Below, in pieces: positions 8,101 through 52,200 of a stretch of DNA of 64,000 nucleotides. The stretch comes from Malacoraja senta (Eukaryota): positions 10,170,001 to 10,234,000 of the forward strand of contig CM075993.1 in assembly GCA_038087875.1 (NCBI GenBank), in the 5' to 3' direction. Made by a program: the position numbers and the translations under genes. The notes under the pieces are model-generated. The model was not told where the DNA came from and made no database searches. It worked only from the letters and a program-made list of their open reading frames with translations. Each line of letters begins with the position of its first letter. Position 1 is the stretch's first letter.

Positions 8101-11100
8101 TTGATTGTACTGGTGTATAGTATGATTTGACTGGCTATCAGGCACACTGGCTAAGACCTTATTCCTTGGAGCACAGAGGGTTGAGGGATAATCTTATAGA
8201 GGTGTACGAGATCATGAGGGGATTAGATAGGGTGAATGCACAGAGTAGGTGAATCAATAACCCGAGGACATAGATTTAAAGTGAGAGATGAAAGATTTAA
8301 TAGAAACCTGGGACCAACATTTTCAGCCAGGATGGAGGGTATAAAGGAACAAGCTGCCGGGCCGGAGGATGTAGTTGAGGCAGAAGCTCCTACAGCAGTT
8401 CAGATATTTGGACAGGTACATGGATAGGAAATGTTTAGAGGGATATGGGCCAAACGTATTCAAATAGAACAAGCCGAGATGGGGCATCTTGAACAGCATG
8501 GACGAGATGGGCCGAATGGCCTGTTTCCATGCTCTATGGGAGATGCCTGGCAGTAAACCTGGGTGAAGCCCCTGGACTAACAGGGGAGGCAGAGTGTTTA
8601 CAGAGCAGGAACGAGGGTTCGATCCTGACTGCGGGTGCTACCAGTTCGGAGTTTGTACGTTCTCTCTGGGACCACGTGGGTTTTCTCTGGGTGCTCTGGT
8701 TTCCTCCCACACTCCAAAGACATGCAGGTTTGTAGGTTAATTGGCTTTGGTAAAATTGTAAGTTGTCCCTAGTGTGAAGGATAGGGCTAGTGTATGGGGA
8801 TCGCTGGTCGGCGCGGACTCGGTGGGCCAAAGGGCGACATCCAAGTGTCACAACGAGAGAGGTGATGGTTTAGTATTCATCAAAAACAAGAATGGACACT
8901 TAAACAGGAAGTTAAAATGAAGCAAAACAATAGAAATATGTTTGCTGTATGCTATTTTTGTAAAGTAAAATATCACTCACAATGCCACGAATTATGGTGG
9001 AAGAAACATTCAAAATAGCTGTCAAAAGGGGAAGTCCGTGAGGGTTTAGTGGCCACAAGCTCCTGCTAAGAACCTGCACAGGGTAGATGAGACAAGTGAG
9101 GACACAAGGTGCTGCAATAACTCAGTGGGTCAGGCAGCATCTCAGGAGAACATGGACAGGTGACATTTCAGGTCAGGACCCATCTTCAGACACAAAACAT
9201 CATCTGTCCATGTTCACCAGAGATGCTGCCTGACCCGTTAAGTTACTCCAGCACTGTGTGTGTGACTTTTGTAAACCAGCATCTGCAGTTCCTTGCATCT
9301 ACGTCTTAAAGAAGATGCAGTTTATTGGTGTTTGGGTTGTCAAAGTTGTACAGCATGGCGACAGGCTTGTGTCCATTTGTGGAAAGCAGCATCTGCAGTT
9401 CCTTGTTCTCACTGGATGAGTCAAGTGGTCTACTTCTGTGCTTTAAAAGCCAGCAATGAGTGCCTTTACAACGGAAGTTACCGAGAAGTGGTCAGAAGCA
9501 AGTCAAGTTTTCAAATAGAATTGCTGGCGTTGATCAGATAAAAGGACACATCCCCCTCCGTTGTGGGCAGCCTGAGAATCAAGAACAAACCATCCCCAGC
9601 ATCTGCACCGAGTGACAGACGTCTGGGTTGACAGAACGTTCTGTAGAGTTGGCAGCTACCTCTGTAGTGGTGCCCAGTGTCACCTGTTCCATGCTCAAAT
9701 TAGCCATTGCAAACTTTGCTTCCCATTCCAGGGCCCTGGCACCGGAGAGTTGTCTGGGATCGAGGGAGGATACCAGCCCACAGCAGCCTCACACACACAC
9801 ACACACACAAATTCCATGACACTCAATGAGTTCCTGCTTGGAGAGGAGTTACACAAAGTGGCTGGCTCTGGTTCCAACACTCTCTCTAAATTCTGAACGC
9901 CTTTTTAGAGTTCTCCTTCAACTTTCCGGCTTCAGTGTTCCTGGTGTCACACATGGAAAGTCCCTCAGTCCAGGGATGGTTCCACAGGCAATAGACAATA
10001 GGTGCAGGAGTAGGCCATTCGGCCCTGCGAGCCAGCACCGCCATTCAATGTGATCATGACTGATCATCCCCAATCAGTACCCCGTTCCTGCCTTCTCACC
10101 ATATTCCCTGACTGCTATTTTTAAGCCCTATCTAGCTCTCTCTTGAAAGCATCCAGAGAACCTGCCTCCACCGCCCTCTGAGGCAGAGAATTCCACATAG
10201 TAGAGATACAGCACAGAAACAGGCCCTTCGGCCCACCGAGACCGCGCCAACCAGCGATCACCGTATACTGACACTATCCTACGCGCACTAGGGACAATTT
10301 ACACAAGCCACAGATTAACTACCCTGTGACTAAAGAAGTTCCTCCTCACCTCCTTTCTAAAAAAGCACCCTATAATTCTGAGGCTGTGATCTCTGGTCCT
10401 GGACTCTCCCACCAGTGGAAACATCCTCTCCACATCCACTAACTATCATTCAGGATGGTCTGTGACGACACAGTGGTGCGACCCAGTGTAGTCCGGGGTC
10501 TGAATGAGTCAGAGTTTGTGAGAGTGTGGGAGGTCAGACGACCATGACCCTGACCAGGTGTGAAAGTGACACAGATATGGAGGTGTATCTCAACAGAAGG
10601 GCAGATGAGTTAGGAACAACGCATTATTGTTTCCATTCAATGACAATACTCTTGCTTTTGGTCAGAACCTGAACGTCCCCCTTAAAGTCAAGCACAACTC
10701 GGCTATGGGAGTCCCCTGACTCTGTCTGAAGAATGGTCTCGACCCTAAACGTCACCCATTCCTTCTCTCCACAGATGCTGCCTGTCCCGCTGAGTTACTC
10801 CAGCATTTTGTGTCTATCTTAGGCAATGGGAATAAATCTATAGTCCACTGAAAACATTCCTCTCTGCCAGTTTCCAGTATACACCTGGGAGAACCAAGCA
10901 CAGTGTATTTTATTAGAAATCAAGGTTGTTGAGAATAATCACATTAACCTGATAGGTATACAAAATGATGAGAGGCATAAATAGGGTAAAGAGTCAGAAA
11001 CTGAAGGAGGGTTTCGGCCCGAAACGTTGCCTATTTCCTTCGCTCCATAGATGCTGCCGCACCCGCTGAGTTTCTCCAGCATTTTTGTGTACCAGTCAGA

Positions 11101-12115
11101 AACTTTTTCTCTGGATGGAAAAATCATATACAAGAGGACATAGTTTTAAGGTGAGAGAGGCAACATTTAGGGATGACCAGGGTGAGTGTCTGGAACAAGC
11201 TGCCAGGGTTGGTGGTTGAGGCAAATATGATTTGGCTTTAAGGATAGATGGATAGGCAGGGAATGGAGTGATATGGATTATGCACGGGTAAATCAGTGAT
11301 GGTAGACATAAAAAGCTGGAGTAACTCAGTGGGACAGGCAGCATCTCATTCCTTCTCTCCAGAAATGCTGTCTGAAATACTCCAGATTTTTGTGTCTATC
11401 CTCGATTTAAACCAGCATCTGCAGTTCCTTCCGACACATATTGAGGTGATGGTCTATGTTTCTATAGTTAGATAGAGCTCTAGGGGCTGGTGGAATCAAG
11501 GGATATGGGGAGAAGGCAGGCACGGGTTATTGATTGGGGACCATCAGCCATGATCACAATGAATGGCGGTGCTGGCTCGAAGGGCCGAATGGCCTCCTCC
11601 TGCACCTATTTTCTATGTTTCTACATGGTGGGCCGAAGGACTTGTTCTTGTTGCTGTACTGTTCTATGTTCTAATATTTCCGCAGATAAATAGGGCTCTT
11701 AAAAATAGCGGAGTCAGGGGATATGGGGAGAAGGCAGGAACGGGGTACTGATTGGGGATGATCAGCCATGATCACATTGAATGGCGGTGCTGGATCAAAG
11801 GGCCAAATGGCCTACTCCTGCACCTATTGTCTATTGTCTAAAGAGTGTTCAACACTTTTCAATGAAATAATGATTTGCCTTCACAATAAAATAGCAAAAA
11901 TCTATAATTCCTGGTCTCATGAACAAGCATTCCAACAATAAAATGGATTGATCGATACTACCCATACCCATTACATGAATGCCCACTCACAACCTGTGCC
12001 AGGACACACCAAGCAGGTGGGGCAGGGTTGGCAGCTGGATGTTTTGTCATCACCTTTGCTGGGTTTGTCCTTATCTACTTTATATTTACAGAACATACTT
12101 TCCACCAGACCTTGT

Positions 12116-12267
12116 GGTTAAGAAGGAACTGCAGATGCTGGAAAATCGAAGGTAGACAAAAGTGCTGGAGAAACTCAGCGGATGCAGCAGCATCTGTGGA
12201 GCGAAGGAAATAGGCAACGTTTCGGGCCGAAACCCTTGGGTTTCGGCCCGAAACGTTGCCTATTTCC
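12116..12267. mobile_element. Young Penelope-derived short element (subfamily B) with fold-back end and 16 bp TSD
   Basis: ttccaccagaccttgt is duplicated at 12100-12115 and 12268-12283. Internal palindrome around cgggccgaaaccc/gggtttcggcccg. Confidence 0.8.
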
Positions 12268-14349
12268 TTCCACCAGACCTTGTTTGGGATGCCTGTCATT
12301 TTGCACCAGATAGGGTTTGGTTCTGCTTCTGTATTTTGTAGTACAGTTCTATAGGGCTGGGCAGGAGGGAAGGTTTACACACAGGTACACACCCCTTCAG
12401 CACCTAGCATTGTGCGGTTAGGCATTCAATTAGCGGGCTGCCCGCGGAGCAAAGTTCCTGGGACACGTTCGTATCCAACCTCCCTGTGGCACAAACAATC
12501 AGGGTTTGCAGTGGGTGGAGTTGTGGCTTGAAAACTGTGCTTGCAATATTTAAGATACACACAAACTGCTGGAGTAGCTCAGCGGGACAGGCGGCATCTC
12601 TGGAGAGAAGGACATGTCGGCTTGAGACCCTTCAGACTCTGAAGAAGAGTCTCGACCAGAAACGTCACCCATTCCTACCATCCAGAGATGCTGCCTGTCC
12701 CGCTGAATTACTCCAGCATTTTGTGTCTATCTTGTAATATCTAATATAGGTAATGAGCTACCTAGATATTCTGAGATTAACCGAGTAGAAAACTGAATGG
12801 CTCACCCCTTCCTCTCCTCCAAGGATAATCTTCGCTAGAACTCACCTTCCCTCGTTGAGATGACACTAATCCCCTTCCTTTCTTCCCTCCAATCTTTACC
12901 CCACCGAGGAACAACAACCCATTAGTCTGAAGAAGGGTCTCAACCCAAAACTTCACCTATTCCTTTTCTCCAAAGATGTTGCCTGACCCGCTGAGTTACT
13001 TCAGCATTTTGTGTCAATCTTTGGTGCAAAACCCTTGTGTAGGTTCCTTCCGACACAACCTACTGGTTTAGTTTAGAGATACAGCATGGAAACAGACCCT
13101 TTCGCCCTCCGACCAACGATACTATTGCACTTTTTCTCATCCACTCCCCACACACGATTGAGCAATTTACAGAGGGCCAATTAAACCTACAAACCCGCAC
13201 GTCTTTGGGACGTGGGAGGAAACGGGAGCACCCGGAGGAAACCTGCGCGGTCACGGGGAGAACATGCAAACGCCACACAGACAGCATCTGAGAGAAGGGT
13301 CGAACCCAGGTGCCCGGCGCTGCGAGGCAGCAGCACTACCCGCTGCGCCACCGGGCCACCCTCAAGACTCCAGGATCTCCAGTCTCTTGTGTCTCAACTT
13401 CTTCCCTCGAGGACTGGCCCCAATTCACCAAGCTCTCCCATAACGTTCTATCTCCATCCATGGCCATGAACTGAGAGACAAGGTCTCGACCCGAAATGTC
13501 ACCAGTTCCTTTTTTCCAGAGTTGCTGCCCAACCCGTTGAGTTACTCCAGCACTTTGTGTCTATCTTCGGTTCAAACCAGCATCTGCAGTTCTTTCCCAC
13601 ACCACACACCCTCCATCACACAGAACAGCAGCCAGCCTTTCACCATCTCCATGTTTTTTGAACTCAGGATCATCCATGTGCGTCCCCTGATTCTCTGACC
13701 AGTTCAACACTCCCTCTGAAATTCTAAAGAGGCTAATCAAAACAATCTATGCCCTCGATCAGGAATTTTCTTCGAGTGGGATGAGTTCTATATCCAACCA
13801 ATCCTATTTTTTGAGCCTAACCTCATAGCACAGCGGATACAAGTCAGGGAAGAACACCTAAGATAAACAGAAATTTGATCCGTCTCTCAACTTCTGACAC
13901 CAGGCTAACATTCATCAGATATCTGCCAACAATATTGCATTTTATAAGCTTACAATATTATGTGCGTCATGGAACAGTATAGTAGAGGAACAGGCCCTTC
14001 GGCCCACAATAACAGTGCCGAACACATTACTAAGCCAGCTCTACCCCACCTGCACATAAATACATGTAAAATAGCAATCGGAAAATATCCATGGATTTGA
14101 ACTCCAGGCGAGTGACTGCCTTGGAATCACTACATCATGTAATTCAAAGTGGAGAGGAAAGTTTAAACGCGACCAAAACACAAATACACATCACAAATTG
14201 GATATATATATATATTCAAAAGAATCCAAAATAGAAACAGACTGAAGGCGCAATGACACAACGAATATCGCTATTGTTTAGCCACACGATCGCATTAACT
14301 CATTTAAACTCACACACGTTGTCCGCGTTCAGTTTGGCAGACAGACGCC

Positions 14350-14549: not shown

Positions 14550-14805
14550 TACTTGAAGTTAGAGAAGTCTATGTTCATACCGCTGGGGTGTAAGTTGCCC
14601 AAGTGAAATATGAGGTGGTGTTCCTCTAATTTGCGCTGGGCCTCACTCTGACAATGGAGGAGACCCAGGACAGAAAGGTCAGTGTGGGAATGGGAGGGGG
14701 AGTTAAAATGTTGAGCAACCGGGAGATCTGGTAGGTTCAGGCGGACTGAGCGGAGGTGTTCAGCGAAACAATCGCCGAGCCTGCACCTGTTCTCGCTGAT
14801 ACAGG
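14550..14805 (-). mobile_element. Penelope-like element, GIY-YIG endonuclease C-terminal remnant
   Basis: RLGDCFAEHLRSV...PVAQHFNSPSHSHTDLSVLGL...RKLEEHHLIFHLGNLHPSGMNIDFSNFK, a typical vertebrate Penelope endonuclease tail. Cut off by the assembly gap. Confidence 0.85.
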
Positions 14806-15374
14806 TCACTAGACTTGCCCCTAATTACCCTTGAATTGCATGACATGTTCAACACAGTGGCACAGTTTGTAGAGCCTCTGCCTCACAGCACCAGTAACCC
14901 GGGTTCGATCCTGACCTCGGGTGCGGTCAGGAAGCATCTCTGGAGAAAACGAATAGGTGACGTTTCGGGTCGAGATCCTTCTTCAGAGGTCCGAACAAAG
15001 TTAGTGGCATTGGTGTTGGTACAAAGAATTTGAGCTTTTATTTAGTTTTTCTCGAATATTTAAAAAAAAAATGTATTTAATTTCTATTGTTTTATCTATT
15101 ATCTATTGATGACTGTGTTTACAGGCCTGTTATGCTGCAGCAAGTGGCGGTCATTGTTCCGTTTCAGTATATATGACTAGTAAACACTCTGGAGTCACAG
15201 ATAGCTAGAGTGGATAAGGAAGAATGATCTATTCCTGAAGCGTTGAGTGAGCCTGATGGGATTTTATGCCAATCCTGTCATCTATATCACTGGTACTTGC
15301 TGTAAATTCTCGGTTTATTTAATTAATGAGGATGTAAACTCCCCAGAGCATGTTGAACCTGGATTTCTGGATAA

Positions 15375-16309: not shown

Positions 16310-16780
16310 AACCCCCCCCCCCACCCATTCCCACACTGACCTTTCTGTCCTGGGCCTCCTCCATTGTCAGAGTGTCGCCCAGTGCAAATTGGAAGAACAG
16401 CACCTCATATTTCGCTTGGGCAGCTTACACCCCAGCGGTATGAACATTGACTTCTCTAACTTCAAGTAACTCTTGATTTCCTTCTCTCTCTCCATCCCTC
16501 CCCTTCCATAGTTCTCCAACCAGTCTGACTGTCCCTCTGATTACATTTCATCTTTGTATGCCTCGTTGTCACCGTCTCCTCGCTAACAATTATCTATTCT
16601 ACATTTTCCTTGAGCTGCATCTCCCTTGATGTCTTGTTTTCACACCTTGCCCTTCCTTATCTCTGTGCGTCCCTCTCATCTGACTCTCGGTCGGAAGAAG
16701 GGTCTCGACCCGAAACGTCACCCATTCCTTATCTCCAGAGATGCTGCCTGTCCTGCTGAGTTACTCCAGCATTTTGTGTC
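16310..16780 (+). mobile_element. Penelope-like element 3' end: endonuclease C-terminus, 3' UTR and the hammerhead-bearing module
   Basis: HSHTDLSVLGLLHCQS...GMNIDFSNFK* ends at 16469 and runs through the UTR into gaagaagggtctcgacccgaaacgtcacccattcc...gagttactccagcattttgtgtc. This links the ubiquitous short repeat to Penelope. A similar 3' end lies at 32425-32990. Confidence 0.85.
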
Positions 16781-18041
16781 CATCCCCATAGGTTTGTGTG
16801 AGTTCCGTGGGAGCCTGGAGTGGGGTTATTGTCGTAGTTATTGTGTCATTGGTGGACCAGTTCTAAATTGGGAAGCACCAAACGCAAGGAGCAATTGGAG
16901 ATGTGTGAATGACTGCGCGCATTGCTTGGAGTTCAGTGTCCTGAGTCACCATGGTGTGTACATCAGCAGGGGATGAGGACTGAAGGCTTCGGATCCAAAC
17001 ACCCCTGAGTAAACCAGCTCGTATCAGTGGATTAAACTAACGACTAACTACAGTGTGGAAACAGGCCCTTCGGCCCAAATTCAGCCATGATCACATTGCA
17101 GGCCTACTCCTGCACCTATTGTCTATTGTCTATTGTCTAAATTGCCCACACTGGCCAATGTGACCCAGCTACACGCGTCTCACCTGCCCGCATTTGGCTC
17201 ATTTCCCTACAAACCTGGGCTATCCATGTACCTGTCTAACTATTTCTTAAATGTTGGGATAGTCCGTGCCTGAACTACCTCCTCTGGCAGCTCATTCCAT
17301 ACACCCACAACCCTTTGTGTGAAAACGTTACGCCTCAGATTCCTATTAAATCTTTTCCCCTTCGCCGTTAAACCTATGTCCTCTGGTCCTCGATTCCCCT
17401 ACTCTGGGCAAGAGACTCTGTTCATCTACCCGATCTATTCCTCTCATGATTTTCTACACCTCGATAAGATCACCCCTCATCCTCCTACGCTCCAAGGAAT
17501 GGAGTCCCAGCCTACTCCACCTTCCCCTACAGTTCTAGCCCTGGCAACATCCCTGTAAATCTTCTCTGTACCCTTTCCAACATCTTTTCTGAAGATAGAC
17601 ACAAAAAGCTGGAGTAACTCAGAGGGACAGGCTGCGTCTCTGGAGAGAAGGAATGGGTGACGTTTCAGGTCGAGACCCCCATCTTCAAATATCTTTTCTC
17701 AGTTAGATGAATTTTCAGAGTGCAGTCTAGCGTGTCTACATTTCTGCACCTTCCACTCCTACAAGGCAACACATGCAGGTCATGTTCAGCTTGTGGTCTG
17801 TTTGCATTCTTATGCCTGGTTACGAGGGTTATGATATAATTTGTTAATTTGTTGATTATTTATTGTGTGGTTGTAAGGCTGCAACAAGTAATAATTTTAT
17901 TGTTCCATTCTTGGTGAATATGACAGACAAACGATCTTGACTCTTGAATGACGTGTAACTGGCAGGTGTATCGCTATTAATGATACTTTTACAAGTCAAA
18001 TTTTCCGAGATTTACTGCAAAGTAAATCAATGAGATTCCTT

Positions 18042-18470
18042 CTAGTTGATCAGCTTGATCAGCTACAAGGAAGCTAGATCAGTCGATCTAGTTTTAACGA
18101 AGGAACTGCAGATGCTGGAAAATTGAAGGTACACAAAAATGCTGGAGAAACTCAGCGGGTGCAGCAGCATCTATGGAGCGAAGGAAATAGGCCAGGTTTC
18201 GGGCTGAAACGTTGCCTATTTCCTTCGCTCCATAGATGCTGCTGCACCCGCTGAGTTTCTCCAGCATTTTTGTGTACAGTCGATCTAGTTGATCAGCTAC
18301 AAGGAAGCTAGATCAGTCGATCTAGTCGATCTAGTTGGTCAGTCACAAGGAAGCTAGATCAGTCGATCTAGTTGATCAGCTGCAAGGAAGCTAGATCAGT
18401 CGATCTAGTCGATCTAGTTGGTCAGCTACAAGGAAGCTAGATCAGTCGATCTAGTTGATCAGCTGCAAGG
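18042..18470. repeat. 37-bp tandem repeat (gatctagttgatcagctacaaggaagctagatcagtc), about 5-6 units, interrupted by a Penelope-derived fold-back
   Basis: Direct reading. Some units carry an extra 9-mer, gatctagtc. Confidence 0.88.
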
Positions 18471-21419: not shown

Positions 21420-21609
21420 GTTGAAGAAGGAACTGCAGATGCTGGAGTATCAAAGGTAGAGAAAATTGCTGGAGAAACTCAGCGGGTGCGGCAGCATCTA
21501 TGGAGCGAAGGAAATAGGAGACGTTTCGGGACGAAACGTTGCCTATTTCCTTCGCTCCATAGATGCTGCCGCACCCGCTGAGTTTCTCCAGCAATTTTCT
21601 CTACCTTCA
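21420..21609. mobile_element. Penelope-derived fold-back element (subfamily B) with 11 bp TSD
   Basis: Two inverted halves. agggaaagaag at 21409-21419 and 21610-21620. Confidence 0.8.
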
Positions 21610-24160: not shown

Positions 24161-26240
24161 CATACTCAGTATTCTGATTTTATTTCAGATTTCTGGAATC
24201 TGTAGTATTATTATTTTGTTTTTTCGCTCATTGTTGTCCTAGTTGTTTATGAAGCCATTGAATATTTTTCTAGGTATTGTCTACGTCAGGGGAACAGGAG
24301 TTATAGGGCAAAGTTGGAAATGCTGGGGCTTTTTTTTTGGAGCGTAGGAGGCTGAGGGGCGACTTATTGAGGTGTACAAGATCATGAGGAGCGCGGATAA
24401 AGTGAACGCTCACAGTCCTTTTCCCCAGGGTAGAGGATTCTAAAATAGAGAGCATTGTTGGATATAGGTGAGAGGGGAGAGATTCAAGGGGCCCCTCAGG
24501 AGCACCTTTTTCAATCGGAGGGAAGTCCGCACCTGGAACGAGCTGCCAGAAGCTGTAGAAGCGGATACAACTATTAATTTTCAAAGACATGTGGACAGAT
24601 GTATGAATAAGAAGAGGGATACAAGCCAAATACAGGGAAATGGGACCAGCCCAATATCTCAACTTGTTCGGCATGGACAAGGTGGGCTGAAGGGCCTGTT
24701 TCCATGCTGTACAATAGACAATAGGTGCAGGAGCAGGCCATTTGGCCCTTCGAGCCAGCACCGCCATTCAATGTGATCATGGCTGATCATCCCCAATCAG
24801 TACCCCGTTCCTGCCTTCTCCCCATATCCCTTGACTCTGCTATCTTTAAGAGCCTTTGCTCACCCACAAATAATGTGAAGTATCTTCATGCTCCTGTCCT
24901 TTGGTGCAGAGCCTCATAACATCCCTACATCTCTCTGTTTGGACCTGAACCCACACAGCAACCATATAGACCGGCTCATCTTCTCACTGCTCAATACTGT
25001 TGTGCAGGGGGCGGCACGGTGACACAGCGGTAGAGTTGCTGCCTTACGGCGCTAGAGCCCCGGGTTCGATCCTGACCATGGGTGCTGTCTGCACGGAGTT
25101 TGCACGTTCTACCTGTGACCGCGTGGGTTTTCTCTGGGTGCTCTGGTTTCCTCCCACACTCCAAAGACATGCAGGATTGTAGGTAGATTGACTCCTGTAA
25201 ATGCGGGATAGAATTTGTTTACGGGTGATCATTGGTTGGTGCGGACTGGGTGGGCCAAACAGCCTGTTTCCACGCTGTATCTCTGGAACGATAACTAAAA
25301 AGCCATATATTTCAAACTGGCGCACATTTGTGCTGCATGCTCTGATCCATGCATCTCCCCTGACCCACTGTTACTTCTCACAGGCCGTTTACCAGCATTT
25401 TCCTACAATGTGCCATCACTGCCTCACGCTTCACCTTTAAATGGAAAGTCAGCACTTGCTCTCAGTGGAGTTCCATTCAACTGCTGTGCGCCCCCCCCCC
25501 TCCACCTACCTTCCTGGACCCCCCCCCTCCCTCCCACCCCCCCTTGCTGCCCCCTAACCTCCCTCGCCTTTGTTGCCCCTCCCACCCACCTTCCTAGACC
25601 CCCCCCCCTCCCTTCCACCCACTTTTCTCCCCTGGGGACAGCAGCCAACATTATGAAGGATTATTGTCACCCTGGTCATTCCCTCTTCTCCCCTGTCCCG
25701 TCAGGCTGAAGGTACAAAGGTACAAGCAGAGATCAGCAGGCTCAGGAACAGATCTCTCTCTCCACTGTTACTGAGCGTCCACCCCCCCCCCCCCCCCCCG
25801 TAAGCTTGGTGTGGTCCTGATCTTCCAACTACATCTTTGCAGACTTTGCGCTTCTTTAGCCTGCACCCTCTCTGTGAGTGTGATACCATAACGTTGTAAC
25901 AACTATATTCTTCATTCTGTTTTTTTTTGTTGGAAAATAAGACACAAAATGCTGGAGTAACTCAAGTGGGTCAGGCAGCATCTCTGGAGAAAAGGATTGG
26001 GTGACGTTTCAAGTCGAGACCCTTCTTCAGACTGGAGTGTTGTCATCGGTTTATAACAAGATGACTGCACTGTCATCACCATCACCATGCAGTAATCATA
26101 CAGCAGACATGTGGCCTGTGACAGTTTCCTGGGTGAATTGTTTAAGAAAGAACTGCAGATGCTGGAAAAATCGAAGGCGGACAAAAATGTTGGAGAAACT
26201 CAGCGTTGCTGAGGCAGCATCTATGGAGCGCAGGAAAGGT

Positions 26241-26268
26241 GACGTTTCGGGTCGAGACCCTTCTTCAG
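26241..26268 (-). ncRNA. Minimal hammerhead ribozyme core, CUCG-loop variant
   Basis: Reverse complement reads ctgaagaagggtctcgacccgaaacgtc. Confidence 0.6.
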
Positions 26269-27688
26269 ACTGAGGTGAATTGGTCAGTTAAATAGTAACA
26301 GTAACATCTCACTGTTTGGGCAACAATAGTCTTTTTCAACAGACAATGGGATTAGGAGGCAGAGATCAGCCATGATTGAATGGCGGAGTAGACTCGATGG
26401 GCCGAATGGCCTATTTCTACTCCTATAACTTGTGAACTGCAGATACTGGTTTACACAGAAGATAGGCACTTTTTAAACAGACACAATGTACTGGAGTAAC
26501 TCTGCGGGTCAGGCAGCATCTCTGGAGGAAAGGAATAGGTGACGTTTTGGGTCAAAACCCTTCTTCAAAGACGTCACCTATTCCTTTTCTCCAGAGATGC
26601 TGCCTGGTCCACTGAGTCACTCCAGCACTTTGTGTCTGTATAAAAAATGTCTATCTTAAAAGGTGTCTGAGTGTCTATCTTCTGTGTAAATCAGTATCTG
26701 CAGTTCACAAGTGATAGGAGTAGAATTAGGCCATTCGGCCCATTGAATCTACTCCGCCAGTCAACCATGGCTGATCTCTGCCTCCTAATCCCATTTTCCT
26801 GCCTTCTCCCCATAACCCTTGACACCTGTTCTAATCAAGAATTTGTCTATCTTTGCCTTACAAATATCCACTGACTTGGCCTCCACAGCCCTCTGTGGCA
26901 ATGAGTTCCACGGATTAACTACCCTTCCGGAAACATTCTTTTTAAGCTGATCGGAGTGTGAAGGTAAAACCTCACCCAGTGAGAGAGAGAAGTCTGCTGC
27001 GGGCAACAGCATTCTTGTTGCGCTAATCAACGTGTTCAGCAACGGACAGCATAAAGCATGCGTCTCAAAGAGCTCCACACAGCTGCCTCCTCCTCACTCT
27101 TGCTGCATAAAGTTTAAATAGCTGAATGCAAGGCATTGCCAAATGCTCCTTGACCGACCCTACCCCCTATATCCTCATTCCATGAATGATTCACATACAT
27201 ACAAACAAACAGGGCGAAGGCCGTGGACTATCAAACCGATCAATTTCCCTCCTGGGATAAATAAAGTTCTATCGTATCGTATTAACCCGCAGACCTGTGG
27301 GGTTTGGAGTGTGGGAGGGAACCAGAGCACCTGGAGGAAAACCCACGAGGTCACAAGGAGAACGTACAAACTCCGTACAGCCAGCACCTGTAGTCAGGAT
27401 CGAACCTGTGTCTCCGGCTTTGTAAGGCATCAACACTATCATTTCACCACCGTGCTGCCCCAATAAATAAATTGTAGTAAATATATGTGTGTGTAGACAA
27501 AAATGCTGGAGAAACTCAGCGGGTGAGTTTCTCCAGCATTTTTGTCTACTTTCGATTTTCCAGCATCTGCAGTTCCTTCTTACACAATGTTCAAGAAGGA
27601 ACTGCAGATGGTGGAAAATCAAAGGTAGACAAAATTGCTGGAGAAACTCAGCAGGTACGGCAGCATCTATGGAGCGAAGGAAATAGGC

Positions 27689-27716
27689 AACGTTTCGGGC
27701 CGAAACCCTTCTTCAG
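27689..27716 (-). ncRNA. Minimal hammerhead ribozyme core, UUCG-loop variant
   Basis: Reverse complement reads ctgaagaagggtttcggcccgaaacgtt. Confidence 0.6.
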
Positions 27717-29374
27717 CCCAAAACGTTGCCTATTTCCTTCGCTCCATAGATGCTGCCGTACCCGCTGAGTTTCTCCAGCAATTTTATCTTCCTTCTCAAA
27801 CAAAGTGTGTGTGTGTGTGTTTGTGTTGGTCGGAGGACTAATGGCTCAGACTGTCCTCTCTGCGTCTAGCCTCTCTCTGCACCTTCCTGACGGGCAAACG
27901 TGACGAGGAGACAGACTGATGCTTTGAACAGAGGATTAACTGAGGCAGAAGTCGATCGGTTCTTGATTAGTACGTAGTTGATTAGCAAATGGAAGGAACA
28001 GCACCTCATATTTCACTTGGGCAGCTTCCACCCCAGTGGTAGGAATATTGATTTCCCTAACTTCAAGTAACCCCTTCATCCCCTCTCTCTCTCTCCGCCC
28101 CTCCCCCACATTAGTTGTCGTACTAGTTTCATTGTCAGACCTCGACCAGAAACGTCACCCATTCCTTCTCTCCAGAGACGCTGCCTGTCCCGCTGACTTA
28201 CTCCAGATTTTTATGTCTATTTCCGGTTTAAACCAGCATCTGCAGTTCCTTCCTCCACTTGTTCCAAAGCCTTTGCTTTTTAACCTGATACCACTGTAAC
28301 CCGCCAGTTTCCTGCATGTCCCAACCTCTGGGCTGAAAGATAATATGAGCAGAAGCTACACCTCAGACTGTTGAAGGATCCCGACTCAAACTGTCACCTC
28401 TCCACGTTCTCCAGAGATGCTGCCTCACCCATGGAGTTACTGCAATACTTTGTGTCTTTTTTTGTAAACCAGCATCTGTAGTTCCTAGTTTCTACACTCA
28501 GACCGTTGAAACCAGTTTCATTGTGAACAAACAGGTGTGGGAATTATTTCTGCTTACAGCAAAGATATAGTTTGAAAAAAATCTGTATCTGTTGACCAAG
28601 CACCTGTCACAACCCATATAGAACCAGTAAAGGGCCTGTCCCACTGTACGAGGTAATTCACGAATTCTCCCAAGTTTTCCCCTGATTCGAACTCGCATCA
28701 AGAAGCGTCAGGTCCGGAAGCAGCGAGCAGTGTTTGTGGATGTAGAAATAGCCAGAGCACCTGGGGAAGGACATATGGTCACAGGGAGAACGTGTAGACT
28801 AGTCAGGGCAAGGTGATCAGGATTGATCTGGGGTCAATGGAGCTGTGAAGAAGCAACTCTGCCCACGGATCCTGTCATAGGTTATCATTTCTGGAGTTTT
28901 CAAACATAATACAGATAGGTGAGGCAGCATCTATGGAGAGAAGGAATGAGTGACGTTTCGGGACGAGACCCATCGTCAGTCTGAAGAAGGGTCTTGACCC
29001 GAAACATCACCCATTCCTTCTCCCCATAGATGCTGCGTCAACCGCTGAGTTACTCCAGTATTTTGTGTGTCTACCTTCGATTTTATCCAGCATCTGCAGT
29101 TCTTTCTCGCACATAATACAGATGGGGTTTGATTGAGTAACTGAGCCAGTTGGTCAGTGTAGAGAGTAGACATGAGGAAACAGCTACTTGCTCAGCTTCT
29201 ATTGACCGCGGGGAATTGTCACTTTCTGGAGAAGGAAGAGGAAGGGTTTGTAATTTGTGAAGGAAGCAGGAAGTGTTTTGAGTGATTGTGGACCTGCTCA
29301 TTGTTACAAAGAACTTACTGTGCTCTTCCTTCCTATTTGTTATCATCTACAAAGTGTTTAATTTGATAATTAGT

Positions 29375-32050: not shown

Positions 32051-32560
32051 GGCATGAACATACATGTAAGAGAGTCATGTAACAGTGATTCTGTAGCAGG
32101 ATATAATGGAGCCGTTGTCCATGTACACCACAATCCCTTACACGGTGGGCAGGCTTGGGGTGACTACTGGAGTCACTTCTCTAACGAATGCCGTTGCAAT
32201 GGAGGTCCATCACACGGATAATGATTTTGACATTTGCGGCTGTATTCTCACGCAACACGTCTGTGTACGCTTCTAGTAAATTGGCGGTACAGGGTTTCAT
32301 AATGTGTTGTTCCCCATTCATGAGATGCTGATCTTTACAGTTATTGCTCATTCCTGTAGTCAGCTGGCGGCCACTGCCTTGAACTGCTGCAGTCCGTATG
32401 GTGAAGGTACTCCCACGCAAGCTCCCACCTCACCTGGGCAGCTCACACCCCAGCGGTATGATTAGTGACTTCTCCACCTACAAGTAACCCTTGCTTTCCA
32501 TCCCTCCCCCATCCCAGTTCTCCCACCAGCCTGACTGTCTACCTGATTACATTTTATCTC

Positions 32561-32725
32561 CGCGGGTGCAGCAGCATCTATGGAGCGAAGGAAATAGGCA
32601 ACGTTTCGTCCCGAAACGTTGCCTATTTCCTTCGCTCCATAGATGCTGCTGCACCCGCTGAGTTTCTCCAGCACTTTTGTCTACCTTCGATTTTCCAGCA
32701 TCTGCAGTTCCTTCTTAAACTCTTA
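32561..32725. mobile_element. Penelope-derived fold-back element (subfamily B) nested in an older Penelope 3' end, 13 bp TSD
   Basis: tacattttatctc flanks both sides. Inverted halves are centred on aacgtttcgtcccgaaacgtt. Confidence 0.75.
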
Positions 32726-33334
32726 TACATTTTATCTCTGTATGCTTCGTTGTCACCTTCTCCTAGCTAGCAAAGATCTATTCTACATTATCCGAGATCT
32801 CCTTTGATGTCTCGTTCTCACACCTTTCCCTTCCTTATCTCTGTGTCTCCCTCTCCCCTGACTCTCAGGCTGAAGAAGAGTCTCGACCCAAAACGTCACC
32901 CATTCCTTCTCTCCAGAGATGCTGCCTGACCTGAGTTACTCCAGCTTTTTGTGTCTACAGTTTAAACCAGCATCTGCAGTTCCTTTCTACACAATGGTTT
33001 TGAGGCAACTGGACAACACTCTCAAGCACTTTGCAGGACATTCTATTGACAATCTCTATTGGGGAGCAATGGATTGACTGGAATATGTGAAAATGTCGGA
33101 CAGTTTTCAATTAATAATAGATATTGAGAAATATGATTTTGAGGTGATAAGTTTGGAAATATCCTTTGTTATATTATCATCCCCATGATCATGAAAATTC
33201 ATGTTCATGAGTTATAGGAGCAGAATTAGGCCATTTGGCCCATCAGGTCTACTGCGCCATTCAATCATTTCCTTCTCAACCCCATTCTCCTGCCTTCTCC
33301 CCATAACCCTGACACCCGTACTAATCTAGAATCT

Positions 33335-39356: not shown

Positions 39357-39478
39357 TTAAGAAGGAACTGCAGATGCTGGAAAATCAAAGGTAGACAAAA
39401 GTGCTGGAGAAACTCAGGTTTCCTTCGCTCCATAGATGCTGCCGCACCCGCTGAGTTTCTCCAGCACTTTTGTCTACC
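39357..39478. mobile_element. Penelope-derived fold-back element (subfamily B) with 14 bp TSD
   Basis: ccccattcctctgt at 39343-39356 and 39479-39492. Confidence 0.8.
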
Positions 39479-42238: not shown

Positions 42239-42459
42239 TTGAGAATAATGTTCCACCTAACATAGGGTGGGCGATGGATGGATTGAATGTGACTTTGTTG
42301 ATTGAATGGACCTTCCAGATTGCAAAGATATGCTGAATAGTATAGACCAGTGGTGAACTGCTTGCATGTGTTGGATACAGACTTGAAATTTAAATAAGAC
42401 TTTAAACTTTCATTCTTTGTTTAGTGAATTTTTAAATGATCATTACACATAGATCATTA

Positions 42460-42858
42460 AGAGCCTGTCCCACTTGGCGATTATTTTCGGCGACTGCCGG
42501 CATCATTGATTGACGTATCAGGTCACCGAAAACGTCACGGCGTGATGACGTATTGACGAGCGGTGTTTCTTAGTTTAAAGTCTTATTTAAATTTCAAGTC
42601 TGTATCCAACACATTACGTATTGACGAAGGTACACAAAAATGCTGGAGAAACTCAGCGGGTGCAGCAGCATCTATGGAGCGAAGGAAATAGGCAACGTTT
42701 TGGGCCAAAACCCTTCTTCAGACGAGCGGTGTTTCCTCAAGTGTCGCAACATTTTTTTGTCGCTGGATTTTGAAATGTTCAAAATCTTTTGGCGACCCTG
42801 ATACGTCATTCAATGACGCCGGCAGTCGCCGAAAAAATCGGCAAGTGGGACAGGCCCT
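42460..42858. mobile_element. PIF/Harbinger-like MITE, family 2, interrupted by a Penelope-derived insert
   Basis: gcctgtcccacttggcgattattttcggcgactgccggc...gccggcagtcgccgaaaaaatcggcaagtgggacaggc. Partial copies at about 21640-21797 and 59045-59097. Confidence 0.72.
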
Positions 42859-43583
42859 TGGTACAGTTAGTGAAAAACATGTCCTCTCACTGTGGGTCAA
42901 CTAGGGCAGCACGGTGGCGCTTAAAAAAACGTTTCATCCGAGACAACATTAACCCCACTTACCATCAGAACGTGGACCGAAACATTGCAACCTACACCCC
43001 ACATTCACTGTTAAACAAGTCATGCAGGAAACTGGCAGCCTCGTGCCTGCGAATAACATGTTTCTCTTTCATCCTCAATTACTGCATCACCTTGATCTTA
43101 ATCTCTGACCTCTCACAGACAGGCAGTGCTAATAGTGGCTGCGATGTCAGACACTGGGCAGAGTGACCCAGGCCTTTGATCATTACTGTGGATTGACCTG
43201 GTTGCAGAACGAGATACAATCTCAGGCCATTCATACCAAGGGAGTCCTGTTGACTTGTGCCATTTAACATCTTTGTGCCCCTTTCTCAGTTCCCTCACCT
43301 CCCTCTGCCCCCCATCTCCCTCCCTGCCTGTCCACTCATGCTTCCTCACGGTGCCTGGTCCATCACGGAATCTGACCTCCCCACCATTGAAGGGATCTAC
43401 AGGAGTCACTGCCTCAAAAAGCAGCCGGCATCATCAGACACTCACACATCCCTGGCCACACTCTCATTTCTCTCCTGCCATCAGTAAGAAAGTACAGGCA
43501 CAGCAGCCTGAAAACTGCAACATCCAAGTTCAGGAGCAGCTTCTTCCCGACTACAATCTCCAAATAAGCTAAGAATTATATAG

Positions 43584-48045: not shown

Positions 48046-49102
48046 GAACCAAGCAATCTCAGCTTTAACAGAGTGCTTCACATTAACGGGTGAAATCAAG
48101 TTCAAGTTCAAGTTCACGTTTATTGCCACATGCACCAATAAGGTGCAGTGGAACTTGACATACCAAGCAGCCTCACAATCAAAAGAGCACAATGCACAAT
48201 AGAATACAACATGAACATCCACCACAGTGGAATCAACATTCTTCACTGTGGTGGAAGGCAACAACTTTGTCAGTCCTCCTCCTTTGTTCACCGTGGTCGG
48301 GGCCATGAACCCTCCGTAGTTGCCGCTACAGATGGCCCGATGTACAGGCCCTCTAGTCGGGATGCTCAAAACTCCGACGTCAGGATGGACCGACAGACAC
48401 TTGGCAGTCCCGAATCGGCCGCTTCCTACCGGAGACCGCGGTATCAGGATGTTATAGGCCGCAGGCCGGCGGTAGGAGCTCTTCTCCAGCGACCCCCGGC
48501 AAGGGATCGCCCGGCTCTGCTGCTGAAGCTCTGGGCCCGCCAATCCAAGCTGTTAGGCCGCGAGGGAGGGCGAAATGCAACTAGGAGAAAAGTTGCATTC
48601 CCCCGAGGTAATTGAAAAACAGTTTCCCCCAATTCCTGCCCCACCCCCCCCCCCCCCCCACACTTAAACACACTTTTAGACATACTAAAAAAAAAAAAAA
48701 AGTGTAAGGACGAGCAGCTGCTGGCGAGGCTGCCGGCTCACGGCACCACCCGTCTGGTGGTGGATATAGGAAGTGTTACCACATCAACTGTGTATGGGGG
48801 GGAACGGGGTGATGCGGGTCTGCTTGGTATTACCGTGCAAGCAATGAGAAATAGCACGGTGGCGCAGCGATAGAGTTGCTGCCATACAGCGCCGGAGACC
48901 CGGGTTTGATCCTGACTATGGGTGCTGTCTGTGTGGAGTTTGTACATTCTCCCCGTGACCGCGTGGGTTTTCTCAGGGTGCTCCAGTTTCCTGTCCTGCT
49001 GCGTAACCACATCATTCTTCTAAACCCCATCGAGCACAGGCCCAGTGCCGTCAAACGCTCATCATATGTTAACCCACTCAAGCCTTGGATCATTCTCGTA
49101 AA

Positions 49103-49240
49103 GAAGAATGTCTCGTCTGAAGAAGGGTTTCGGCCCGAAACGTTGCCTATTTTCTTCGCTCCATAGATGCTGCCGCACCCGCTGAGTTCCTCCAGCAATT
49201 TTGTCTACCTTCGATTCTCCAGCATCTGCAGTTCCTTCTT
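49103..49240 (+). mobile_element. Penelope-derived short element (subfamily B) inserted in a CR1, 15 bp TSD
   Basis: gatcattctcgtaaa at 49088-49102 and 49241-49255. Confidence 0.8.
49117..49144 (+). ncRNA. Minimal hammerhead ribozyme core, UUCG-loop variant, sense to the DAPK2 pre-mRNA
   Basis: CTGAAGA-A-GGGT(TTCG)GCCC-GAAA-CG-TT. Confidence 0.6.
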
Positions 49241-52200
49241 GATCATTCTCGTAAACCTCCAACACCAGCACATCCTTCCTCAGATATTGTGCTCAAAGCT
49301 GCTCACCGCAATGCTCCAAATGCAGTCTGACCAGTGCCTTATAAAGCCTCAACATTACTTCTCTTTTTAAAAATATATTCTAGCCCTCTCGAAATAAATG
49401 CTGGCATTGCATTTGCCTTCTTTACTACCGATTCGACCTGCAAATGTGCTTTTTGGGAAACCTGCAGCAGAATTCGCAAAGCCCTTTGCACCTGGGATTT
49501 GTGAACGGTGGGATGCATTGCTGCACCACTGTTGTCTAGCGAGCTGTGACAGTGGCGGGCGGTTGCTGCTGTACGTGGGGTTGTGAGACAGAGAAGGCAT
49601 TGTGGACTGTGGAGGTGAGTATAGACAGAGCCATTCACAATCTGACCATTCTCCTCAGAATCCCAACAATAATCACAGCCTCCGAACACCATGCCTGCTG
49701 TGTTGATGCAGATCTCATTTGATATGCATGTTAATGTCTTGCCTGTAACTGGGGTCTGATTGGATTATCACTGCCTTCTCATCCGGAAGATAAATGAGAC
49801 TAAAAGACGTGCCGGACATTTAAAACCAACTCTCGGTTTTGCCCTAATTATTTTCAAATGGGGATGAACAGTGATGTATTGTAGAGCAAAGGCCTTTCAC
49901 TATTCGGTAAGTCTTAATAAGTTTCCCCCCTCAACCCTTTAAACTCCAGCGAGTACAGTGTCAAAGGCCCTCGGGGTGGGAATCACAGTCATAGAATGAT
50001 ACAGCGCAGAAACAGGCTCTTCGGCCCAACTAGTCCATGCTGACCATCATGTCCACCCCAGCTAGTCTCATTTGCCCTTGTTTGGTCCATATTCCTCCTG
50101 AACCTTTCCATTCCACTCAGCTGTCAACAAAGAGCCAACAATGGACCATTTGTGGGCTCCACCTTTCCTTGGCCATCGGTGCCGGCTCCGACGTGTTCAT
50201 ACCTCTAGTTTCCCTCTCCCCTGACCCTCAATCTCAAGAGGGGTCTCGACCCGAATCATCATCTATTCTGTTTCTCCGGAGATGTTGCCTGACCCACTGA
50301 GTTACTCCAGCATTTGTGTCTACCTTAGCTGTCTTTCAAATATCGTTGCGGTACCTTCCCCTGGCAGCGTGTTCCACATACCCACCATCCTCTGTGTGAA
50401 TAGGCTTCCATCAGGTCTCTGTTAAATCTTTCCACGTTCAACATAGACCTCTAGTTTTAGACCCTTCCCCATACTGGGGAAAAAACTTCACCTCAAAGAG
50501 GAAGAAGATTGGTCTTTTGTTGCCTTCCATCACAGTGAGGAGTGTGGGGAATCCACCGTGGTGGATGGTTAACTTTTCAGTGTCTTGTTGCTTTTTTTCG
50601 TATGGCTGTATGGTAATTCGTATATTACTGTACCTAAAGGTACATGTGACAATAAAAGACCTTTGAAACCATTGAAGGTAGACAAAAGTGCTGGAGAAAC
50701 TCAGCGGGTGCGGCAGCATCTATTGAGCGAAGGAAATAGGCAACGTTTCGGGCCGAAACCCTTCTTTGAAACCTTTGATCTTTGTCCCTCGTGATTTAAT
50801 AAACCTCCATAAGGTCACTTGTCAGCCTCCTTCGCTCCATGCGGCAACAGACTGGTGGGATCTCAGAGACATGACAAGATCCAGAGAGCACGAGATGTAC
50901 TGGGATCAGACGGTGAGATATTAAAGGTGGGTAGAGTGAAGGGTGAATGGTCAGATTGTAACTAAACTAAGGAAGCCTCGACCAGGGGAAGTGAGGATTC
51001 AGTGTGTTGGAGAGGGTTTAAAACATTCTTGGAGAACATTCCCGTTATCTGCTGTGAGCCCCTTTAGAGTAAGGATTGAGGCTAAAGGCCGATTGTAGAA
51101 TGACCACACAAGGACCTGACCCACAAGGAAGCAGTGTGGGATAGAACTCCAGATGCTGATTTAAATCGAAGGAAGACACAAAATGCTGGAGTAATTCAGC
51201 GGAACAGGCAGCACCTCTGGAGAGAAGGAATGGGTGATGACATGGGAAACTCCTCCAGTGATGTGGCCTGTCCCGCTGAATTACTCCAGCAGAGTGCCTA
51301 TCCACAAGGAACCAGTCCTGGTCCGGCGCTGATGGACTGCAAGGCAAGATGCTAGATGCAGGAAAAATGTTCCCAATGTTGGGCGAGTCCAGAACCAGGG
51401 GCCACAGTCTTAGAATAAAGGGGAGGTCATTTAAGACTGAGGTGAGAAAAACCTTTTTCACCCAGAGAGTTGTGAATTTGTGGAATTCCCTGCCACAAGG
51501 GCAGAGGGCAGTGGAGGCCAAGTCACTGGATGGATTTAAGAGAGAGTTAGATAGAGCTCTAGGGGCTAGTGGAGTCGAGGGATATGGGGAGAAGGCAGGC
51601 ACGGGTTAGATAGGGGACGATCAGCCATGATCACAATGAATGGCGGTGCTGGCTCGAAGGGCCGAATGGCCTCCTCCTGCACCTATTTTCTATGTTTCTA
51701 TGTGCAATGCAGGAGCTGGGGGGGAGGTTGAGGTTGAATAAGAGGAGGCCAACCTCTCGGCCCTGGCCTCCTGCCAACTATGAGTGTACCTCCCTATATC
51801 CCATCACCCATAGTTTAGAGATACAGCATGGAAACAGGCCCTTCGGCCCACTGAGTCCGCACCGAGCACACAAACACCAGTCCTGCATACTACGGACAAT
51901 GTACATTTATACCAAGCCAATTAACCTACAAACTTGCAGGTCTTTGGAGTGGGGAAGGAAACCGGAGCACCCGGAGAAAACCCACGCGGTCACAAGGAGA
52001 ACATACAAACTCCATGCAGACTGCACCCGTAGTCAGGATCGAACCCGGTTCTCCGGCGCTGGAAGGCAGCAACTCTACTGTTGCCCCACCGTGCACTCCA
52101 TCCGATACCCTGCACTCTGGACCTACACTAGCGATAAATATCCCTGAGTGTCTATTTACCTATTGTGCAAATATCAATCTCCTGAAACTGAAACTAGCTC

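What the first reader, a model, noticed from the sequence alone, without database searches (positions are those of the whole stretch)
10992..50770. Young, non-coding Penelope-derived mini-element that moves as fold-back hairpins with 11-16 bp TSDs
Seen: subfamily B (gaaggaactgcagatgctggaaaatcgaaggtagacaaaa...aaggaaataggcaacgtttcgggccgaaaccc) occurs as near-identical 90-300 bp inserts at about 11001, 12116, 18098, 21420, 27490, 32561, 39357, 42626, 49103 and 50671. Several have exact flanking duplications (agtcagaaact, ttccaccagaccttgt, agggaaagaag, tacattttatctc, ccccattcctctgt, gatcattctcgtaaa). Many consist of two inverted halves that turn at or near the hammerhead stem. They sit inside older CR1, MITE and Penelope copies, so they are recent. 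Inference: a non-autonomous, retrozyme-like family mobilised by a Penelope RT/GIY-YIG protein, with the inverted halves arising from template switching during integration.
Basis: partly seen in the sequence, partly recalled or inferred. Interest (0 to 1): 0.75.

Follow-up and report, generated by a model that had tools for sequence, protein, structure and literature searches.

The report
Skate Penelope terminal-repeat stub insertions
These short repeats are the ribozyme-bearing ends of a known type of jumping gene (a Penelope-like retrotransposon) in a skate, inserted in a mirror-image pattern already described for this class, and their shape suggests that both cut DNA strands start copying the same RNA.

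Summary
The ten named loci contain 11 young insertions (18 arms). Nine have exact 10-16 bp target duplications and seven are two-armed. They are the ~125-nt hammerhead-bearing pseudo-LTR (pLTR) of a skate Penelope-like element (PLE); older relatives in the window still carry the 3' UTR and GIY-YIG end. Truncation is not random: 20 of 26 unpaired arms that reach the hammerhead core stop within a few bases of it, and 3' ends fall at two sites ~30 nt apart. But hairpins are not the mobile unit. Junctions differ, 18 of 20 head-to-head pairs carry the tail on exactly one arm (none on both), and in 7 the tail-less arm reaches further 5', which snap-back copying alone cannot make. Best model: both nicked target strands prime reverse transcription, one at each internal start site, and the two cDNAs anneal at self-complementary words. 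Inverted pLTR plus optional tail, palindromic junctions and two start sites are published for PLEs, and this scan noted the pattern in two shark genomes. Retrozyme tests fail (no tandem B copies). Non-autonomy is open: stubs may be by-products of an autonomous mRNA's 5' end.

The parts
11003..11093 (+). B solo arm, tail-less (ends at start site 2); 11-bp duplication 10992-11002 / 11094-11104
   Evidence: strand = RNA sense
12116..12267 (.). B two-armed insertion: tailed arm 12116-12237 (-), short arm 12240-12267 (+); junction at helix II base; 16-bp duplication 12100-12115 / 12268-12283
18094..18276 (.). B two-armed insertion: tailed arm (-), tail-less arm (+); junction on the 7-bp hairpin; 14-bp duplication inside a tandem repeat
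21420..21609 (.). B two-armed insertion: tailed arm (-), tail-less arm (+); junction on the 7-bp hairpin; 11-bp duplication 21409-21419 / 21610-21620
27493..27587 (.). B two-armed unit: tail-less arm (-) reaches 7 nt further 5' than the tailed arm (+); no clear duplication
27591..27795 (.). B two-armed unit, tail to tail with the previous one: tailed arm (-) reaches the hammerhead core start, tail-less arm (+)
32561..32725 (.). B two-armed insertion inside the 3' UTR of an older Penelope copy; 13-bp duplication 32548-32560 / 32726-32738
39357..39478 (.). B two-armed insertion in which neither arm contains the other (tailed arm covers +65 to the tail, tail-less arm +33 to site 2); 14-bp duplication 39343-39356 / 39479-39492
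42570..42720 (-). B solo tail-less arm (42625-42720) plus 43 nt (42572-42614) that are an exact inverted copy of local DNA 42366-42408; 15-bp duplication 42555-42569 / 42721-42735
49103..49240 (+). B solo full unit with tail: minimal hammerhead 49115-49146 (core from 49117, predicted cut after 49144), start site 2 near 49209-49215, site 1 near 49240; 15-bp duplication 49088-49102 / 49241-49255
50671..50763 (-). B solo tail-less arm; 10-bp duplication 50661-50670 / 50764-50773
26141..26273 (-). Intermediate (A-to-B) solo unit with tail and 9-bp duplication
28917..29110 (.). Intermediate two-armed insertion with 13-bp duplication; both arms reach the 5' boundary
16318..16785 (+). Older (A) PLE 3' end: GIY-YIG C-terminus, stop, 3' UTR, hammerhead pLTR ending at site 2; links the repeat to an autonomous PLE
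32430..32990 (+). Older (A) PLE 3' end with UTR and tailed pLTR, interrupted by the B insertion at 32561
14552..14821 (-). PLE GIY-YIG endonuclease C-terminal 90 codons, ending at the assembly gap
1433..1617 (.). Older two-armed unit: tail-less arm runs to the 5' boundary and joins the tailed arm at about +36 through microhomology; clearest case against simple snap-back

Best explanation
The inserts are solo pseudo-LTRs of a skate EN+ Penelope-like retrotransposon (Neptune/Nematis type), made by target-primed reverse transcription. Shown: a ~125-nt unit that starts a few bases before a minimal type I hammerhead, ends at one of two sites ~30 nt apart, is flanked by 10-16 bp duplications, and descends from PLE 3' ends with a GIY-YIG ORF. 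Inferred: (1) the GIY-YIG nicks both strands 10-16 bp apart; (2) RT starts inside the RNA at site 1 (with tail) or site 2 (without); (3) if one end primes, a solo arm results; (4) if both ends prime, one at each site and on RNA of the same haplotype (probably one molecule), the two antisense cDNAs anneal at their 3' ends through self-complementary words, mostly in the hammerhead, and fill-in gives a head-to-head palindrome with the tail on one arm; (5) the fixed 5' end is the RNA's own 5' end, most likely a transcription start at an initiator-like TCAGT, so most copies are short run-off products from the front of a PLE transcript. The hairpin is rebuilt at each insertion and is not the mobile unit. 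My odds: PLE pLTR identity 0.95; dual priming 0.6; 5' end is a transcription start 0.45; template is an autonomous mRNA rather than a non-coding master 0.5.
For: Link to PLE: arms contiguous with 3' UTR and GIY-YIG codons at 16318-16785 and 32430-32990; endonuclease piece 73-76% identical to skate proteins, one with the CX4CXXC linker. Tail on exactly one arm in 18 of 20 pairs, on both in 0 (p 1.7e-4). Tail-less arm ends at +88 to +100 in 11 of 18 pairs (p about 1e-6 for an 11-nt window; ends), where 18 of 26 tail-less unpaired arms also end (+86 to +99). Tail-less arm reaches at least 7 nt further 5' in 7 pairs, tailed arm in 4, level in 7; in 5 of the 7 it stops at the natural 5' boundary. 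Partner arms match at a three-state haplotype site in 5 of 5 pairs (about 0.005 by chance from the 4/4/3 counts) and share 2 private variants. 20 of 26 unpaired arms that reach the core stop there (p 2e-18 against the in-unit truncation rate). In 4 of 4 laid runs loose ends pile up at the same base with mixed flanks, and strand-switch joints map to the hammerhead region. An anole PLE protein cuts and extends both strands, starts at two internal sites that define the tail, and uses uncleaved RNA (PMC11167929).
Against: Later asymmetric deletion at a palindrome centre (recalled phenomenon) could also leave the tail-less arm longer. Shared arm variants fit snap-back or gene conversion equally well. 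Aligned end to end, partner arms differ at 10 of 336 sites (3.0%), near the 3.4% between insertions at non-CpG, non-haplotype sites, so they are not unusually alike; the 4 of 337 came from local alignments that clip mismatched ends. At one CpG site near site 2 the arms disagree in 2 of 2 pairs. Seven of 18 short arms end outside site 2, and 2 of 20 pairs have no tail. No promoter or RNA end was measured, and the same bases read as a 3' splice site. No B-type end joined to a UTR or ORF was found. All pair counts come from one 64-kb window and mix subfamilies.
Confidence: 0.6

Rival explanations
1. Snap-back plus resolution: one cDNA starts at the tail, folds back on its own hammerhead palindrome and copies itself; the endonuclease then cuts the new arm at site 2 and joins it to the second nick. 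Cases with a longer tail-less arm arise by later central deletion.
For: Three of 7 B junctions sit on a perfect 7-bp hairpin. Arms share haplotype and 2 private variants. Self-priming and EN-mediated resolution of the tail are the published proposals (PMC3846280; PMC8557442). The 42626 insertion shows that a primer end can copy nearby DNA.
Against: Needs separate deletions in 7 of 11 asymmetric pairs, 5 of which keep the natural 5' end on the tail-less arm, and 2 of which are young B copies. Tail-less solo copies with clean duplications (11001, 50671) end at site 2 too. The tail was traced to two RT start sites in vitro.
Confidence: 0.3
2. B is a true non-autonomous family: a short non-coding master, or many copies with an internal promoter, is transcribed and copied in trans by a PLE protein, like a SINE. 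This is compatible with either junction mechanism.
For: Fixed 5' and 3' ends; at least four source haplotypes among 11 insertions; no B arm with UTR in the window; lineage-specific variant at 49210 (22-26% of depth in two runs of organism C, 0.15-0.2% in two others); head-to-tail monomer joints in run X3.
Against: The older subfamily has the same fixed ends yet clearly belongs to an ORF-bearing element; 0 of 4 against 6 of 22 is no difference. In the anole PLE the RNA needs bases downstream of the start sites, which inserted stubs lack. Exact duplications are only weakly more conserved than B copies (p 0.02-0.04), so diverged copies acting as sources is not shown.
Confidence: 0.4
3. Retrozyme: tandem monomers self-cleave to circles, which are reverse transcribed.
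For: Minimal type I hammerhead present; tandem joints exist in run X3 at summed depth 715 and 244 (table 5c); retrozymes are proposed to derive from pLTRs.
Against: 0 of 11 B insertions are tandem, and 2 tandem neighbours among 82 arms. Copies run through the predicted cut and stop about 30 nt upstream of it. Bases upstream of the boundary are not the tail. Helix I is 2 bp and B has GUU at the cut.
Confidence: 0.1
4. Ordinary random 5' truncation of full-length PLE copies with no breakpoint bias.
For: 16 of 42 unpaired arms are truncated inside the unit and 4-6 run into the UTR.
Against: 20 of 26 arms that reach the core stop within about 13 nt (p 2e-18); the same boundary dominates loose ends in 4 of 4 runs.
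Confidence: 0.03

Closest known systems
Inverted pLTR with optional 30-40 bp tail in EN+ PLEs (Adineta Penelope, PMC3846280; overview PMC8557442)
   Same: Head-to-head inverted pLTR, shorter than the direct one; palindrome at the junction; tail on one end only; duplications of 8-10 bp; solo pLTRs noted.
   Different: There the inverted pLTR mostly flanks ORF-bearing copies of rare families; here pLTR-only units make up 11.7% of the window, with a sharp 5' boundary and 10-16 bp duplications. Those papers propose self-priming or EN resolution; the counts here favour dual priming.
PAc, Poseidon element of Anolis (PMC11167929)
   Same: Two internal RT start sites that define the tail; both strands cut and extended; hammerhead at the front of the region copied; uncleaved RNA used.
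   Different: Poseidon clade with the ORF starting in the hammerhead; the skate relative has the linker zinc finger of Neptune/Nematis and no ATG in the core. The parts read do not address inverted arms.
Minimal hammerheads of metazoan PLEs (PMC4209133)
   Same: Core, extra base before helix II, palindromic ACGU in place of helix III; mostly single motifs from truncated PLEs; pairs on opposite strands noted; a 2-bp helix I in Drosophila virilis.
   Different: Helix II is 4 bp here; chondrichthyans are not named in the parts read; B has GUU and a U-G first pair in helix I.
Non-LTR retrozymes (PMC7229834; bioRxiv 10.64898/2026.07.22.740005)
   Same: Non-coding, type I hammerhead, PLE-related.
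   Different: Defined by tandem repeats with a hammerhead in each unit and by circular RNA; these copies are solo or inverted.
L1 twin priming (recalled, not read)
   Same: Both target strands prime on the RNA and an inversion results.
   Different: L1 inversions join two non-overlapping RNA segments; here both arms copy the same segment from two fixed start sites.

Membership tests
EN+ Penelope-like element (terminal repeat of) | RT plus C-terminal GIY-YIG ORF linked to the repeat | tested here: met
   Met for the older subfamily (GIY-YIG C-terminus, UTR and pLTR contiguous at 16318-16785). Relatives carry GIY-YIG and RT Pfam hits below curated cut-offs. B is about 78-80% identical to it.
EN+ Penelope-like element (terminal repeat of) | ORF-bearing copy with B-type pLTR | tested here: inconclusive
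   None in the window; no genome held; pattern scans found nothing.
EN+ Penelope-like element (terminal repeat of) | Minimal type I hammerhead in the pLTR | tested here: met
   Core conserved in 25 arms; helices II, III and I paired in 89, 90 and 84% of cells, against 8-47% when slid; no two-sided covariation, and shuffles reach the same value. Activity not tested.
EN+ Penelope-like element (terminal repeat of) | Inverted 5' copy, and 30-40 bp tail on one end only | tested here: met
   20 head-to-head pairs; tail on one arm in 18, both in 0.
EN+ Penelope-like element (terminal repeat of) | Variable-length target-site duplication | tested here: met
   9 of 11 B insertions, 10-16 bp.
Neptune/Nematis clades | CX2-5CXXC linker between RT and EN | tested here: met
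   Present in skate relative P0002 (73% identical to the window piece) and in P0006 (definition). The window piece starts after the linker. The regex count 72 of 79 also catches the CCHH cysteines and is not used.
Neptune/Nematis clades | RT phylogeny placing it in Neptune | not tested
   No PLE RT in the window and no labelled references on hand.
Non-LTR retrozyme | Tandem repeats with a hammerhead in each unit | tested here: not met
   0 of 11 B insertions; 2 tandem neighbours among 82 arms. Tandem joints seen in 1 of 4 runs' listed rows.
Non-LTR retrozyme | Unit boundaries at the cleavage site | tested here: not met
   5' ends cluster about 30 nt upstream of the predicted cut; only about 5 of 87 arms start at +28 to +33.
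Non-LTR retrozyme | Self-cleavage and circular RNA | not testable with these tools
   Only contigs were on offer; no RNA holder on record.
MITE / hairpin mobile unit | Identical palindromic unit with two equal termini copied whole | tested here: not met
   The two ends differ by the tail; at least 5 different junctions among 7 B units.
Dfam/Repbase skate family | Match to a catalogued consensus | not testable with these tools
   Libraries not available.

The most novel reading that the evidence does not exclude
Subfamily B is a ~125-nt self-contained Penelope parasite, a Pol II 'SINE' with its own start site and no ORF, present in the order of 10^5 copies in skates and still diversifying by lineage. 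A PLE dimer integrates it by priming both target strands on one RNA at two fixed sites, which would explain in one step the inverted pLTR, the junction palindrome and the one-sided tail of all PLEs.
Probability: 0.25. Interest if true: 0.6.

Novelty: new member of a known kind. Interest (0 to 1): 0.33.

Why it matters
The architecture is known, so the family itself is an annotation item. Its value is as a test bed. How PLEs make inverted ends and one-sided tails is still called unresolved in the papers read. Very many young, short copies with clean duplications allow a genome-wide count that separates dual priming from snap-back, and that shows whether solo pLTRs come from the front of the mRNA. 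pLTR stubs fill 11.7% of this window, inside what appears to be a kinase gene intron, so they are also a large source of short palindromes in skate genomes.

Tried and rejected
Whole-genome consensus and partner search: no genome held. Pattern scans for B or A ends in metagenome, viral and prokaryotic collections: 0 hits in 4 scans. Rfam gathering scan: no hammerhead family matched. Single-strand folds of 5 units: z-scores -1.3 to +0.7, no stable fold, as expected for a dimer-type minimal hammerhead. First pair count had helices I and III off register, redone. 'Arms are far more alike than separate copies, so B has many diverged sources': suggested (4 of 337), dropped after end-to-end alignment (10 of 336). 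Nearest-neighbour test of partner arms: partner closest in only 7 of 38 comparisons, confounded by junction bases; not used as support. The 5' peak is partly an artefact of a model that starts at the core; rechecked on raw upstream bases. Presence/absence: no listed contig of 4 runs spans the 49103 site; the joints that skip it come from, or cannot be told from, paralogous LINE copies: no verdict. Expression: no RNA holder listed; run X16 is marked probably DNA. Duplications of old A copies were mostly at chance level. Protein search for a full-length chondrichthyan ORF: 71 hits, none a complete skate element. Coding role of the ATG in the unit: frame open in B, closed in A; not pursued. In one search rows aligned to reference A2 are offset by +30; I subtracted it. 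Literature searches that found no paper on this skate family or on dual priming in PLEs; the library lacks most subscription papers, and supplements of the 2026 preprint (its one chondrichthyan) and Fig. S2 of PMC11167929 were not seen and may bear on novelty.


Full report
Setting. The window is skate DNA by its best protein hits: a GIY-YIG C-terminal piece at 14552-14821 is 73-76% identical to Leucoraja proteins and 63-73% to Rhinoraja proteins. A kinase exon near 62000 suggests an intron; the DAPK label is recalled. No genome was held, so counts come from the window, with one lay of contigs from four public runs.

Observation. All ten loci and six duplications are real. A search with one copy finds 79 matches in 64 kb, in two identity classes: about 90-97% (B) and mostly 71-88% (older, here A). 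The ten loci hold 11 B insertions and 18 arms. Nine have exact duplications of 10-16 bp; under one rule 7 of 10 loci reach 10 bp against 2 of 296 random intervals. Seven are two-armed. Paralogous repeats span 5 of 9 rebuilt empty sites, among them an older Penelope UTR and a LINE RT tail (the CR1 name is recalled). B copies carry 11 private changes in 634 non-CpG sites (1.7%), while non-B arms differ from one another by 21.6%. B is young but not private to this species: matching contigs are about as deep in runs of two other organisms, and one variant (49210) makes up 22-26% of depth in organism C and 0.15-0.2% in the others. Summed depth over the unit is 1.5-4.8 x 10^5 times the unique flank in run X1; the tool warns that this is no copy number, so I take it as an order of magnitude only.

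What it is. It fits the PLE minimal hammerhead of PMC4209133 (parts 1-2 of 4 read). At 16318-16785 and 32430-32990 an A arm is contiguous with a 3' UTR and GIY-YIG codons, so the repeat is a PLE pseudo-LTR. A close skate relative has the linker zinc finger that marks Neptune and Nematis (PMC8557442 passages). Copies at 26141 and 28917 are intermediate between A and B.

Ends. Numbering from the first core base, 3' ends fall at about +125 to +131 (with tail; 34 of 82 arms) or near +90 to +99. This matches the two internal RT start sites that define the tail in the anole PLE (PMC11167929, parts 1-2 of 4). At the 5' side, 26 unpaired arms reach the core; 4 clearly and 2 marginally go on into a UTR, and 20 stop. 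In the 22 without clear UTR, agreement falls from T at -1 (20 of 22) and G at -2 (14) to A at -3 (9), and is near chance from -8. With the truncation rate inside the unit (16 events in 2790 nt) this has p 2e-18. A UTR unlike my three references would be missed, but in all 4 runs loose ends pile at the -2 base (287, 437, 456 and 70 contigs) with only 0.34-0.41 agreement upstream (these include A-type contigs). Random truncation is thus rejected. The boundary is about 30 nt upstream of the predicted cut, so the template was uncleaved, as in the anole work. The conserved TCAGT there resembles an initiator (recalled), and pLTRs hold the start site in Drosophila virilis and Chlamydomonas (PMC2377424 passages). 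It also reads as a 3' splice site after a pyrimidine tract, and in D. virilis an intron ends at helix I. I put transcription start at 0.45, an RT roadblock or processed end at 0.35, and splicing at 0.2.

Inverted halves. Among 82 arms there are 20 head-to-head pairs, 4 tail-to-tail and 2 tandem neighbours. The tail is on exactly one arm in 18 pairs, on neither in 2, on both in none. In 11 of the 18 the tail-less arm ends at +88 to +100, where 18 of 26 tail-less unpaired arms also end. It reaches at least 7 nt further 5' than its tailed partner in 7 pairs (1433, 9068, 27493, 39357, 41175, 57033, 60413), the reverse holds in 4, and 7 are level. In those 7 neither arm contains the other, so one cDNA copying itself cannot build the unit unless the centre was later deleted; 5 of them stop at the natural 5' boundary on the tail-less arm. 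Junctions favour self-complementary words: 3 of 7 B units turn on the family's only stem of 5 bp or more, and the listed strand-switch joints in the runs link +34 to +41 with -2 to +10. Partner arms share haplotype (5 of 5 at a three-state site, 5 of 5 and 4 of 4 at two others, 0 of 2 at a CpG beside site 2) and 2 private variants, but differ at 10 of 336 sites overall. I infer that both nicked strands prime, one at each site, on RNA of one haplotype, and that the cDNA ends anneal (0.6). Snap-back with endonuclease resolution stays possible (0.3). At 42626 the insert begins with an exact 43-nt inverted copy of DNA 150-190 bp away, so primer ends can also copy local DNA before reaching the RNA.

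Autonomy. No B arm continues into a UTR, but 0 of 4 against 6 of 22 means nothing (p 0.54). A has the same fixed ends and does belong to an ORF-bearing element. If transcription starts at the pLTR, the front of an autonomous mRNA holds both start sites plus the downstream bases that the anole protein needs, and would yield exactly these stubs, which would then be dead on arrival. A non-coding master would look the same. At least four haplotypes show several sources. Retrozymes are defined by tandem units and circles (bioRxiv 10.64898/2026.07.22.740005, parts 1-3 of 5; PMC7229834 passages); B fails the tandem and boundary tests, though run X3 shows head-to-tail joints.

Comparison and novelty. 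Inverted pLTR, junction palindrome, one-sided tail, duplications and solo pLTRs are described (PMC3846280, 12 passages; PMC8557442 passages; PMC8969392 passages; PMC12910113 passages gave nothing relevant). Two earlier reports of this scan describe the same pattern in shark genomes; they are AI notes, not support, and my reading was recorded before I saw them. Searches for this family or for dual priming in PLEs found no paper, but Dfam, Repbase, most subscription papers and the supplements were not available. Verdict: a real, young, very abundant new member of a known kind. What it adds is a count that favours dual priming, and a sharp 5' boundary. Interest 0.33.

Noticed in passing
window 44656-44733 (-): HDV-like ribozyme matching Rfam CPEB3_ribozyme (36.9 bits, cut-off 35, E 3e-6), outside a CPEB3 context as far as seen; may belong to a LINE 5' end.
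   Followed up: no
window 42572-42614: Exact 43-nt inverted copy of 42366-42408 inside the B insertion, between the left duplication and the cDNA; a templated insertion from local DNA.
   Followed up: partly
window 34135-35718: Tc1/mariner transposon with a 301-codon open frame (34502-35407; transposase HTH and DDE domains), apparently inserted inside an older pLTR arm (halves at 34097-34134 and 35719-35815).
   Followed up: partly
window 53647-54815: LINE reverse transcriptase remnant in two frames (RVT_1 E 2e-24).
   Followed up: no
window 61980-62130: Protein kinase exon (Pkinase E 8e-12); resembles a death-associated protein kinase (recalled).
   Followed up: no
window 32819-32869 and 16641-16693: The PLE 3' UTR ends in a pyrimidine tract, a branch-point-like word and AG right before the hammerhead, as a 3' splice site would; D. 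virilis Penelope has an intron end at the same place.
   Followed up: partly
window 21523-21537 and 32603-32617: Two separate insertions share the same base change in the 3-nt centre of the junction hairpin; source variant or junction hot spot, unexplained.
   Followed up: no
run X3 laid on window 49115-49240: Head-to-tail joints from the tail end back to the 5' boundary (summed depth 715 and 244), possibly tandem monomer arrays in organism C.
   Followed up: no
window 42459-42859, 21700-21800, 59054-59100: MITE-like family with about 70-100 bp inverted arms; hosts or adjoins two B insertions.
   Followed up: no
window 45455-45560 and 46436-46487: A second PLE subfamily end has a different upstream UTR, 53 nt of which recur at 46436-46487 (91%).
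   Followed up: no
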